Below, one piece after another: positions 48-5,786 of a stretch of DNA of 64,000 bases; position 1 is the first letter of the stretch; every line of letters begins with the position of its first letter. The notes beneath the pieces are model-generated. The model did not search any database and was not told the DNA's origin. It saw nothing but the letters and a program-made list of their open reading frames with translations. Source of the stretch: a virus; IMG/VR virus record IMGVR_UViG_3300022562_002256, positions 32,001 to 96,000 of that record. One strand, given 5' to 3'. Position numbers and translations under genes: made by a program.

Positions 48-509
48 TCACCCATCGCTGCAGCCGCCCCCTCGCCTTGCTTCATCCACAATCTTGCGCG
101 CCGCCTCCAGGATTGTGGTAACTCGCATTCCCGGCCAAGCTGTACGAAGAGGACACTCTGGCGGGTTCAGCGACGGGATGTCCCCGAGCTGGATCGACCG
201 TTCCTTTCCCGTTGTGGTGTCGGTGTACTTGTATGACGCAAAACGGATGAGCGCGAAGTCAACGTGGAGAAAAAACAGGGGCGTGCCAGCGCTGAGGATG
301 GCGGACGCGTCGCGCTCACGTGCCGCCGACGCCAGGAAGTGCGCAGACACCAGCGCCACGGCGACATCGGCCCGTCGTTCTACGTCGGTGATGATATCTA
401 CCGGGATGTCGCTGCCTTGCACTACATCAGCGACCGCGCGGCTCACGACCGCCGCCACGTCGCTGTCCTGTTCCGCCCAACACATGAGGACCCTACGCCT
501 GGTGGTCAA
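48..509 (-). CDS. TIR-like domain protein
   Basis: RRVLMCWAEQD resembles the TIR strand A motif (vFiSYa.eD); VAVALVSAHFLAS resembles lvS..fl.S; PLFFLHV resembles the last strand. TTG start with AAGGAG RBS. Confidence 0.6.
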   Translation of the reverse strand: MTTRRRVLMCWAEQDSDVAAVVSRAVADVVQGSDIPVDIITDVERRADVAVALVSAHFLASAARERDASAILSAGTPLFFLHVDFALIRFASYKYTDTTTGKERSIQLGDIPSLNPPECPLRTAWPGMRVTTILEAARKIVDEARRGGGCSDG

Positions 510-529
510 GATTTGTGCTCCTTCCGTAG

Positions 530-651
530 TGGACGCGGCGGGATTCGAACCCGCAATAGCCTCTGTTCAGTTACGCGATGGTGAGTCGCGCAGCCGGAGG
601 CACCGCGGTTTCTAGCCGCAGCGGCTTTGCCCTTCTAGCCATCTCACGCCC
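530..651 (-). tRNA. Atypical tRNA, anticodon AGA (Ser), 48-nt variable arm
   Basis: Acceptor GGGCGTG/CGCGTCC; D stem GGCT/AGCC; anticodon arm TGCGG-CTAGAAA-CCGCG; T arm GCGGG-TTCGAAT-CCCGC; A73; no encoded CCA. Confidence 0.7.
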
Positions 652-661
652 GTTTCGCACC

Positions 662-878
662 TCATGCATCATTCGTGCCAACGGACTCAGTGGCATCATC
701 GGGTGGAGCGCAGTCCAACACAAGGCTCGTTCCTGTCTCGCTCAGGTGCTCGACCACCGCGGTCATTGCCTCGCTGGCAACCACCGCCCACCGATCGTCG
801 GCGGTGCGGCACGCGAGCTCGATGCACGGCGCCCAGGATGGCGTCACCGATGGGGCCGTAGTAGTTCGTGGCAGTCAT
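662..878 (-). pseudogene. Small gene with apparent +1 frameshift near 824
   Basis: ATG overlaps the upstream stop; the GC3-rich frame switches after GCC GTG; removing one base gives MTATNYYGPIGDAILGAVIELACRTADDRW... Confidence 0.45.
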
Positions 879-5453: not shown

Positions 5454-5786
5454 ATGCGAACCAAGTCATCTACCCCCAAATCCGTCGCTCCCGCCTTTCC
5501 GTCCGTCGACGCGCTGTGCGCCGTGCTAAAGCGCATGTTTCTCGGAGCAGCCCTCGAACGTGTGGCGGCCCGGCGTGAGCTCGACTCGATCATCGACGCG
5601 GCCACCGTGGGCGAGCGCGCCCTGGTGGAGGCAATCCAAACGGCCTATGCACAGGGCATCATCGATGGCTCGACTGCGCGGGCACCGGAGGAACCTCGCC
5701 CGGGCAGCAAGGTGATTGGGGCCACTGCGCCGACGCCCCCGACTCCGCCCCGCCGTGTCAGCGGTACGACCCGCGTGTTGGCATAG
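5454..5786 (+). CDS. Hypothetical protein
   Basis: 110 aa, MRTKSSTPK..., directly after the promoter. Confidence 0.6.
   Translation: MRTKSSTPKSVAPAFPSVDALCAVLKRMFLGAALERVAARRELDSIIDAATVGERALVEAIQTAYAQGIIDGSTARAPEEPRPGSKVIGATAPTPPTPPRRVSGTTRVLA

What the first reader, a model, noticed from the sequence alone, without database searches (positions are those of the whole stretch)
530..651. 122-nt tRNA-like gene with A34 (AGA) anticodon and a 48-nt variable arm
Seen: canonical 7-bp acceptor, T arm and CU-NNN-AA anticodon loop, but a 3-4-nt connector before the D stem, an anticodon stem extendable to 6-7 bp, and a 48-nt variable region that itself folds (GCCTC/GAGGC closing GCGCGA-CTCACCA-TCGCGT). 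Known: class II variable arms are usually under about 25 nt; bacteria rarely have A34 tRNAs other than Arg(ACG); tRNA-Ser normally has G73, while A73 plus a long arm is Leu/Tyr-like. Inference: a possibly mischarged tRNA (Leu on UCU), an anticodon-nuclease-resistant variant or decoy, or a new tRNA-scaffolded ncRNA class. The ordered folding of the insert argues against simple decay.
Basis: partly seen in the sequence, partly recalled or inferred. Interest (0 to 1): 0.8.

Follow-up and report, generated by a model that had tools for sequence, protein, structure and literature searches.

The report
Phage alanine-type tRNA mimic RNA
A 198-kb uncultured phage carries a promoter-driven, tRNA-shaped RNA gene that bears the marks for charging with alanine but probably does not read codons; it belongs to a small, apparently undescribed group of phage tRNA look-alikes whose job is still unknown.

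Summary
On the minus strand (651 to 527) lies a 122-nt cloverleaf plus a 3-nt tail: 7-bp acceptor, D arm, 7-bp hairpin with an anticodon-like AGA loop, a 47-nt extra arm and a perfect T arm. Standard detectors miss it. Removing a 29-nt hairpin and two connector bases in silico makes ARAGORN call a class II tRNA.

The acceptor carries G3:U70 with A73, the alanine identity set, so alanine is the likelier charge, not leucine or serine.

A sigma-54-type promoter ends 13 nt before base 1. A Shine-Dalgarno-led gene for a protein with a predicted TIR-like fold follows 17 nt after the tail.

One true homologue exists, in a distantly related phage. It keeps the acceptor, D arm, the base of the extra arm and the T arm, with compensatory changes. 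Its 'anticodon' arm ends in a GAAA tetraloop and it lacks the 29-nt insert.

The conserved function is therefore independent of an anticodon. I read this as a non-decoding, alanine-accepting tRNA mimic (confidence 0.5). Its target is unknown.

Looser relatives, all with G3:U70 and A73, occur in other phages, including cultured Streptomyces phages. This scan has noted similar mimics before on other DNA.

The parts
665..680 (-). sigma-54-type promoter motif (TGGCAC-N5-NTGCA), ending 13 nt before base 1 of the RNA
   Evidence: Exact match. The genome holds 51 exact copies, and 24 of them have an ATG 12-13 nt after the motif. Base 1 of the RNA sits at 13 nt.
527..651 (-). tRNA-shaped RNA gene: 122 nt to the discriminator (530) plus a CUA tail (529-527), with no encoded CCA
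645..651 (-). acceptor stem, 5' strand; G3 at 649
   Evidence: Pairs with 531-537. G3:U70 (649:533) and U6:G67. Read.
530..537 (-). acceptor stem, 3' strand (531-537), and discriminator A73 (530)
   Evidence: Identical in L019 apart from the partner of position 6.
623..640 (-). D-like arm (4-bp stem, 10-nt loop with GGG), preceded by the 4-nt connector at 641-644
   Evidence: Sequence and stem are conserved in L019, where the stem is one pair longer.
602..622 (-). arm 2: 7-bp hairpin with the anticodon-like loop CUAGAAA (615-609; AGA at 613-611)
   Evidence: Not conserved in L019, which has a bulged stem ending in a GAAA tetraloop.
559..601 (-). arm 3 (extra or variable arm): 5-bp basal stem and AACA, interrupted by a 29-nt hairpin (596-568) with the loop CUCACCA; UAUU (558-555) links it to the T arm
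   Evidence: In L019 the basal stem and AACA are kept, with two pairs changed on both sides, and the 29-nt hairpin is absent.
538..554 (-). T arm (5 bp, loop UUCGAAU)
   Evidence: Identical in L019.
518..525 (-). Shine-Dalgarno sequence GGAAGGAG of the downstream gene
   Evidence: Read. No terminator lies between the RNA and this gene.
48..509 (-). downstream co-directional ORF (153 aa from TTG 509, or 145 aa from ATG 485) with a TIR-like predicted fold. By layout it is co-transcribed with the RNA.
   Evidence: no sequence homologues; Atlas feature score 0.93 and TM 0.84 to TIR_2 clusters; a lead only.

Best explanation
This is a phage gene for a non-decoding, alanine-accepting tRNA mimic. Its body derives from a class II (long-variable-arm) tRNA.

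Inferred course of events: host RNA polymerase with sigma-54 starts about 3 nt before base 1. The transcript runs on into the TIR-like gene. Host RNase P and a 3' endonuclease release the RNA at the discriminator, and the host CCA enzyme completes the 3' end. Host AlaRS then charges it with alanine through G3:U70 and A73.

The RNA then acts in trans through its acceptor, T and D 'elbow', not through an anticodon. My preferred guess is that it acts as an alanine-charged competitor or decoy for host factors that read tRNA-Ala or the tRNA-like domain of tmRNA, as TLD-only tmRNA variants do. Arms 2 and 3 are variable add-ons.

Shown: the structure, the identity elements, the promoter motif and its spacing, the homologue and what it conserves. 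Inferred: transcription, processing, alanylation and the target.
For: 1) G3:U70, A73, G1:C72 and G2:C71 are present. The same set is kept in L019 and in looser phage relatives that have different acceptor sequences and were not selected for that pair: L072, phage Shaeky, the 185-nt RNA in L018 and this phage's own 65-nt mimic.
2) L019 is the homologue in a phage whose structural proteins are only 30-40% identical to ours. It has an identical T arm, the same acceptor and a conserved D arm. Five pairs are changed on both sides. The model built from our sequence scores it at 45 bits, E 7e-10. Its arm 2 ends in GAAA and is not alignable to ours.
3) Several features depart from a canonical tRNA: a 4-nt connector without U8, a 6-7 bp 'anticodon' stem and a 47-nt arm. 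ARAGORN calls a tRNA only after 31 nt are removed in silico.
4) A sigma-54-type motif places base 1 exactly where this phage places the ATG of its near-leaderless genes.
5) UCU is the rarest serine codon in the phage, at 4.4% of Ser and 2.9 per 1000 codons. A UCU reader would have little to do.
6) There is precedent. A TLD-only tmRNA occurs in mycobacteriophage DS6A, and a similar molecule inhibits tmRNA (PMC4131195, PMC11915505). Long-arm tRNAs with G3:U70 and A73 take alanine in E. coli (PMC5389517).
Against: There are no expression, processing or charging data. Only one close homologue was found, so the covariation rests on two sequences aligned by a model built from one of them (19 of 500 shuffles reach the observed values). 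Our copy does have a well-formed 7-nt loop with U33 and A37, and engineered tRNAs with hairpin-tipped variable arms do translate (PMC7590224). Decoding by this particular copy is therefore not excluded. The phage encodes no recognisable partner: no SmpB, CCA enzyme, Ro60, Fem-type or MprF-type transferase, or AlaX. The D arm and arm 2 occupy the space that SmpB fills on tmRNA, which argues against a strict tmRNA-like mode. Similarity to the tmRNA model is limited to the acceptor and T arm (17.4 bits against a cut-off of 47).
Confidence: 0.5

Rival explanations
1. It is a working but odd decoding tRNA. It is charged with alanine (or ambiguously with alanine and serine) and reads UCU, and perhaps UCC, so the phage mistranslates or recodes a rare serine codon. 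The long arm is a tolerated or protein-binding add-on.
For: Arm 2 has a 7-nt loop with C32, U33, A37 and A38. Once the 29-nt hairpin and two connector bases are removed in silico, ARAGORN calls a class II tRNA-Ser(AGA) at its default threshold. Allo-tRNAs with G3:U70 decode in E. coli and insert alanine. Variable arms tipped with hairpins are compatible with translation.
Against: The homologue has no anticodon loop. The connector has 4 nt and no U8. The stem has 6-7 bp. UCU is used 2.9 times per 1000 codons. A random 7-nt loop fits Y-U-NNN-R about 1 time in 16 (my estimate). A34 next to G35 and A36 is not the known TadA substrate context (my own knowledge). The test of which residues align with UCU sites found only 2 sites.
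Confidence: 0.15
2. It is mainly a cis-acting 5' module of the downstream mRNA. A tRNA-shaped leader is cut off by RNase P or RNase Z-type enzymes, or shields the 5' end, and so sets the stability or the short leader of the TIR-like gene's message.
For: There is no promoter or terminator between the RNA and the ORF, and the SD lies 1 nt after the tail. In several looser relatives an ORF starts -1 to 18 nt after the tail: L021, L028, L029, L030, L072 and L027.
Against: The downstream ORFs are unrelated to one another, and tight spacing is normal in phages. In L019 the RNA lies antisense between two structural genes with no co-directional gene behind it. A processing signal would not need the invariant alanine identity set.
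Confidence: 0.15
3. It is a relic: a decaying class II tRNA gene, or the remnant of a tRNA or tmRNA attachment site, with no present function.
For: Detectors fail. There are insertions relative to a canonical tRNA. Distribution among related phages is sporadic.
Against: All five helices are intact. The T arm and acceptor are identical in a phage with 30-40% protein identity, and pairs are changed on both sides. The element has its own promoter motif at the standard spacing. Both acceptor strands are present, and the phage has no integrase.
Confidence: 0.1
4. It is a minimal tmRNA. Alanine-charged, it would enter stalled ribosomes and use the short frame in arm 3 (GCG ... UAA, six codons, positions 61-81 of the RNA) as a tag template.
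For: The best Rfam clan hit is tmRNA. It has alanine identity. A frame that starts with an alanine codon and ends in UAA lies in the extra arm, and the extra arm is the topological equivalent of tmRNA helix 2 (my own knowledge of TLD-SmpB structures).
Against: The frame lies wholly inside a stable hairpin. L019 lacks it, since its middle region has no insert and no in-frame stop. The tmRNA match covers only the acceptor and T arm, at 17.4 bits against 47. ARAGORN finds no tmRNA. The D arm and arm 2 occupy the SmpB site.
Confidence: 0.03

Closest known systems
TLD-only ('CDS-less') tmRNA of mycobacteriophage DS6A, with the tRNA-like domain of tmRNA in general (Rfam RF00023)
   Same: It is phage-borne and short. 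It has alanine identity (G3:U70, A73), a canonical T arm and no demonstrable reading frame. It probably acts without an anticodon. A comparable molecule is reported to inhibit tmRNA (PMC4131195, PMC11915505).
   Different: Ours has a true D stem plus two further hairpins (a five-helix junction), not a stemless D loop plus one P2 helix. It scores only 17.4 bits on RF00023, and only over the acceptor and T arm. The actinophage RNAs L027 and Shaeky carry the tmRNA-type D-loop motif (GG, one variable base, UUUCGAC). Ours does not.
Allo-tRNAs and other non-canonical tRNAs carrying G3:U70 (Mukai et al. 2017, PMC5389517)
   Same: It has a long variable arm, alanine identity grafted onto a non-alanine body, and an anticodon that does not match its identity. 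Members occur in phages and uncultured bacteria.
   Different: Allo-tRNAs have an 8/4 or 9/3 acceptor/T geometry and a working anticodon arm. Ours is 7/5, has a 47-nt arm and a 4-nt connector, and its homologue lacks an anticodon loop.
Bacterial class II tRNAs (Ser, Tyr, Leu; Rfam RF00005)
   Same: The overall cloverleaf has a variable-arm hairpin. The D loop is of the class II type. ARAGORN calls tRNA-Ser(AGA) after 31 nt are removed in silico.
   Different: It has A73 and G3:U70 where serine needs G73. It also has the 29-nt insertion, a longer connector and a 6-7 bp anticodon stem. It is not detected in its native form.
Phage T4 stable RNAs C and D, and bacterial YrlA/Y RNAs (tRNA-like non-coding RNAs)
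   Same: These are tRNA-shaped, non-decoding RNAs encoded by phages or by mobile DNA.
   Different: YrlA is circularly permuted and travels with Ro60. This phage has no TROVE protein, and the ends of our RNA form the acceptor stem. No sequence relation to the T4 RNAs was tested.

Membership tests
Canonical elongator tRNA (RF00005), class II tRNA-Ser | Recognised by tRNA covariance or heuristic models | tested here: not met
   ARAGORN makes no call (native). Rfam makes none at gathering score. In E-value mode the tRNA model scored below the 17.4-bit tmRNA hit.
Canonical elongator tRNA (RF00005), class II tRNA-Ser | 7-bp acceptor, 5-bp T stem, T loop UUCRANY | tested here: met
Canonical elongator tRNA (RF00005), class II tRNA-Ser | Two-base connector (U8, N9), 5-bp anticodon stem, variable arm up to about 25 nt | tested here: not met
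   The connector is AGAU (4 nt), the stem has 6-7 bp and the arm has 47 nt. ARAGORN calls it only after 29 + 2 nt are removed.
Canonical elongator tRNA (RF00005), class II tRNA-Ser | Anticodon loop conserved among homologues | tested here: not met
   Arm 2 of L019 ends in a GAAA tetraloop.
Canonical elongator tRNA (RF00005), class II tRNA-Ser | Serine identity (G73) | tested here: not met
   It has A73 and G3:U70.
AlaRS substrates (tRNA-Ala identity set) | G3:U70 with A73, G1:C72 and G2:C71 | tested here: met
   Read and conserved in L019. Actual charging is not testable with these tools.
tmRNA / TLD-only tmRNA (RF00023) | Score at or above the family cut-off | tested here: not met
   17.4 bits against 47. 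Only the acceptor and T arm align.
tmRNA / TLD-only tmRNA (RF00023) | Stemless D-loop motif followed by a single P2 helix that leads into the T arm | tested here: not met
   Ours and L019 have a D stem and two hairpins. L027 and Shaeky do show the motif.
tmRNA / TLD-only tmRNA (RF00023) | Tag reading frame | tested here: inconclusive
   A six-codon frame lies inside the arm 3 hairpin in ours. L019 has none.
tmRNA / TLD-only tmRNA (RF00023) | Binding to SmpB | not testable with these tools
   The phage has no smpB. The host protein would be needed.
Allo-tRNA (Mukai 2017) | 8/4 or 9/3 acceptor/T-stem geometry | tested here: not met
   The geometry is 7/5.
YrlA / Y RNA with Ro60 | Neighbouring Ro60 (TROVE) gene and permuted topology | tested here: not met
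   The 198-kb genome has no TROVE match. The 5' and 3' ends form the acceptor stem.

The most novel reading that the evidence does not exclude
The RNA is a natural 'aptamer-tagged' chimeric tRNA that does work on the ribosome. It would be charged by AlaRS and read UCU or UCC, with the 29-nt hairpin in its variable arm (a second, pseudo-anticodon-like loop) recruiting a phage or host protein. The phage would then deliberately recode or mistranslate serine codons under sigma-54 control. A variant of this reading is that it supplies alanine to a non-ribosomal acceptor.
Probability: 0.1. Interest if true: 0.85.

Novelty: new variant of a known kind. Interest (0 to 1): 0.52.

Why it matters
Phage tRNA genes are usually read as codon-usage helpers or as spare parts against tRNA-cutting defences. 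This case shows a tRNA-shaped RNA with its own promoter that keeps the alanine-charging marks while the codon-reading arm is free to change. The same marks recur in unannotated RNAs of other phages, including cultured Streptomyces phages. This points to a class of alanine-type tRNA mimics that annotation pipelines miss. The only described precedent I found is the TLD-only tmRNA of phage DS6A. If these RNAs are charged and act on ribosome rescue, AlaRS, EF-Tu or a defence system, they would be a new kind of phage tool against the host translation apparatus. The cultured phages make that testable.

Tried and rejected
- **Antisense regulator:** the 198-kb genome has no complement or repeat of 13 nt or more. 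The best match is one 12-mer, about what chance gives, and all blastn-short hits have E above 1. A genome-wide duplex-energy scan timed out.
- **Close relatives through flanking proteins or the portal protein:** none in IMG/VR. The downstream protein has no homologue among 5.8 billion clusters.
- **DNA similarity to GenBank phages:** only T-arm-sized matches.
- **Pattern scans for further members of the ours/L019 subfamily:** viral contigs gave only L019/L044. The metagenome scan gave 11 chance hits next to ordinary tRNAs. The genome scan gave three archaeal tRNA-Ala genes with extra sequence in the D-loop region (likely introns) and one normal tRNA-Ala.
- **Syntenic site in six related phage contigs:** no RNA there, and no model hit anywhere in those records.
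- **Partner genes in the phage:** none found for SmpB, CCA-adding enzyme, Ro60/TROVE, tyrosine integrase, FemAB, MprF C-terminal domain or the AlaX/AlaRS editing domain. There was one sub-threshold 15-bit Acetyltransf_6 hit with an internal stop.
- **Recoding test:** I looked at which residues align with UCU codons in homologous structural proteins. Only 2 informative sites were found, so the test is uninformative.
- **Upstream 195-aa protein:** no usable Atlas hit.
- **The look-up of encoding contigs was closed.** The second contig that carries the identical downstream protein could therefore not be inspected.
- **Host identity** was not established by me.

Full report
**Setting.** The window is bases 32001-96000 of a 198,045-bp virus record with direct terminal repeats and 66% G+C. 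The whole genome has one standard tRNA, tRNA-Tyr(GUA).

**What is there.** On the minus strand, base 1 is at 651, the discriminator is at 530, and a CUA tail runs to 527.
- The sequence shows a 7-bp acceptor (GGGCGUG/CGCGUCC) and a 4-nt connector.
- It has a D-like arm (4 bp, 10-nt loop with GGG).
- It has a 7-bp hairpin with the loop CUAGAAA.
- It has a 47-nt extra arm and a T arm with the loop UUCGAAU.
- The minimum-free-energy fold gives exactly these five helices (-54.9 kcal/mol, z -1.9).
- The stretch 496-750 has no codon-position G+C signal, so it is non-coding.

ARAGORN and Rfam at gathering score miss the element. In E-value mode the best hit in the tRNA clan is tmRNA (17.4 bits, E 3.4e-5 for a 401-nt search), and it aligns only the acceptor and T arm. 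When the 29-nt hairpin inside the extra arm and two connector bases are removed in silico, ARAGORN calls a 92-nt class II tRNA-Ser(AGA) at its default threshold. The body is therefore a class II tRNA with two 'lesions'.

**A caution on chance.** A T arm plus a 7-bp acceptor within 40-160 nt occurs about 0.9 times per shuffled genome, against 3 observed. The case for a real element rests on conservation, not on that criterion.

Position 3 pairs with 70 as G:U. Together with G1:C72, G2:C71 and A73, this is the alanine identity set. G3:U70 is the major AlaRS determinant (Hou and Schimmel 1988; McClain and Foss 1988, as cited in PMC5389517). Long-variable-arm allo-tRNAs with G3:U70 were charged with alanine in E. 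coli, and only the one with G73 inserted serine. Alanine is therefore the expected charge, not leucine or serine. This is an inference.

**Expression signals.** An exact sigma-54-type motif lies at 680-665, and its last base is 13 nt before base 1. The genome holds 51 exact copies of this motif. In 24 of them an ATG follows at 12-13 nt. The RNA thus starts where this phage's near-leaderless genes start, which implies a 5' leader of about 3 nt. The lead to this promoter set came from earlier notes of the scan, and I re-tested it.

There is no terminator-like site downstream. A strong Shine-Dalgarno sequence (525-518) and a TTG at 509 open a 153-aa ORF. It has no sequence homologues, but its predicted fold and features match TIR-domain clusters (feature score 0.93, TM 0.84). 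That is a lead, not proof. By layout the RNA and this gene share one transcript.

**The homologue.** A scan of viral contigs for the T loop plus the 3' acceptor strand gave 37 loci. One RNA, present in two contigs from sister samples (L019:1330-1433, minus strand; also L044, L061, L062), is a true homologue.
- Its phage is a distant relative of ours. Nine syntenic structural-module proteins are 26-41% identical.
- A covariance model built from our sequence alone scores it at 45 bits, E 7e-10, end to end.
- The T arm is identical, and the acceptor differs only at position 6 (C:G against U:G).
- The D arm keeps its loop sequence.
- The base of arm 3 and the following AACA are kept, with two pairs changed on both sides. 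In all, five pairs are changed on both sides and 98% of cells are paired, against about 45% when partners are slid.
- These counts come from only two sequences, aligned by a model made from one of them. 19 of 500 shuffles reach the observed values.

The differences are telling. L019 lacks the 29-nt hairpin, so its arm 3 is a plain 5-bp stem with an AACA loop. Its arm 2 is a bulged stem that ends in a GAAA tetraloop. An RNA that keeps perfect stems but has no anticodon loop is under selection for shape and not for decoding.

In L019 the gene lies antisense between two structural genes. Related contigs have a terminator hairpin or nothing at that spot, and none of their records matches the model. 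The gene is therefore sporadic, and its context is not conserved.

**A looser class.** The same scan and follow-ups showed other long or short phage RNAs with G3:U70 and A73, often with the same CUA tail.
- There are two copies in one 62.7-kb phage (L030:522-627 and L072:1501-1596).
- L021, L028 and L029 are 96-111 nt long.
- L018 holds a 98-nt RNA and a 185-nt RNA next to ordinary tRNAs.
- L027 is 78 nt long and has a tmRNA-type D-loop motif.
- Cultured Streptomyces phages carry unannotated RNAs of this kind: Shaeky, inside its tRNA cluster, and Faust.
- This phage itself has a 65-nt tRNA-Ala-like RNA with a stub in place of the anticodon arm (genome 2164-2228; 41 bits on the tRNA model).
- Those not selected by my pattern (L072, Shaeky, the 185-nt RNA in L018 and the 65-nt RNA) still keep G3:U70 and A73 on different acceptor sequences.

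**Tests of other readings.**
- Antisense: there is no complement or repeat of 13 nt or more in the phage.
- Attachment-site relic: both acceptor strands are present, and there is no integrase.
- Partner enzymes: the phage has no SmpB, CCA enzyme, Ro60, Fem-type or MprF-type transferase, or AlaX.
- Codon supply: UCU is the rarest serine codon, at 4.4% of Ser.
- Recoding: only two UCU sites could be compared with homologues, so this test is uninformative.
- Mini-tmRNA: a six-codon frame (alanine codon to UAA) lies inside the arm 3 hairpin but is absent from L019. I give this 0.03.

**Most likely mechanism.** The RNA is transcribed from the sigma-54-type promoter and released by host tRNA-processing enzymes. 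It is then completed with CCA and charged by AlaRS. It acts in trans through the acceptor, T and D module. Arms 2 and 3 are dispensable or lineage-specific add-ons.

The nearest documented behaviour is that of TLD-only tmRNA. [quoted passage not shown] Against a strict tmRNA mode, our RNA has a D arm and arm 2 where SmpB would sit. I therefore commit only to 'non-decoding alanine-type tRNA mimic that competes for factors reading tRNA-Ala or the TLD' (0.5).

The rivals are a decoding chimeric tRNA (0.15), a cis-acting leader or processing module for the TIR-like gene (0.15) and a relic (0.1). The decoding rival stays open for two reasons: engineered tRNAs with hairpin-tipped variable arms are active (PMC7590224), and our arm 2 loop is well formed.

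**Comparison and novelty.** The element fails membership tests for canonical tRNA, tmRNA, allo-tRNA and YrlA (see the table). It shares alanine identity and a probable anticodon-independent action with TLD-only tmRNA. It shares a mismatched identity on a long-arm body with the G3:U70 allo-tRNAs. I rate it a new variant of a known kind. Earlier notes of this scan describe similar alanine-type phage mimics on other DNA, so the theme is recurrent and not unique to this phage.

**Limits.** There are no expression data. Only one close homologue was found. 

Noticed in passing
L002:2164-2228 (+), i.e. genome 2164-2228, outside the window: This is a second alanine-type tRNA look-alike in the same phage. 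It is 65 nt long, with G3:U70 and A73, a canonical U8-A9 and D arm, and a short stub in place of the anticodon arm. It scores 41.4 bits on the Rfam tRNA model. Its acceptor equals that of a genuine phage tRNA-Ala(UGC) in L018:5560-5633.
   Followed up: partly
window 48-509 (-): This stand-alone 145-153-aa protein sits directly behind the RNA. It has no sequence homologues and no Pfam hit, but its predicted fold and features match TIR-domain clusters (score 0.93, TM 0.84). A phage-borne TIR domain, by layout co-transcribed with a tRNA mimic from a sigma-54-type promoter, is unusual.
   Followed up: partly
L018:6052-6236 (+): A 185-nt RNA lies in a phage tRNA cluster. It has an alanine-type acceptor (G3:U70, A73), a canonical tRNA-Ala-like D arm and a T arm, but about 115 nt where the anticodon arm should be. 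A 98-nt alanine-type RNA lies at 5645-5742 in the same cluster.
   Followed up: no
L030:522-627 (+) and L072:1501-1596 (+), same 62.7-kb virus record: There are two diverged copies of an alanine-type tRNA-like RNA in one AT-rich phage. Each has a stemless tmRNA-like 5' region, a long central helix and a CUA tail. Each has an upstream -10-like box and an ORF that starts 12-18 nt after the tail.
   Followed up: partly
L074:301-379 (Streptomyces phage Shaeky, MT701595 42932-43010) and L073:359-425 (Streptomyces phage Faust, NC_070783): These cultured actinophages carry unannotated alanine-type tRNA-like RNAs. Shaeky's sits inside its tRNA cluster and has the actinobacterial tmRNA 5' motif, so it looks like a TLD-only tmRNA. 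Faust's candidate has 6 of 7 acceptor pairs. Both are experimentally tractable relatives.
   Followed up: partly
L009:7434-7473 (-): A 37-nt acceptor-plus-T-arm minihelix with G3:U70, A73 and an encoded CCA lies on a viral contig. It may be the end of a longer or two-piece tmRNA-like gene.
   Followed up: no
L029:5276-5374 (-) and flanks: In this phage the start codon of the next ORF overlaps the CUA tail of the tRNA-like RNA. Cleavage at the discriminator would therefore leave an almost leaderless mRNA.
   Followed up: no
L057, L058, L059 (archaeal MAG contigs): These are archaeal tRNA-Ala genes with 20-40 extra nt in the D-loop region, likely introns, picked up by the long-form pattern. They are ordinary for archaea and unrelated to the phage RNA.
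   Followed up: no
P0001 (the window's 145-aa downstream protein): The protein database records this exact protein on two contigs.
   Followed up: no
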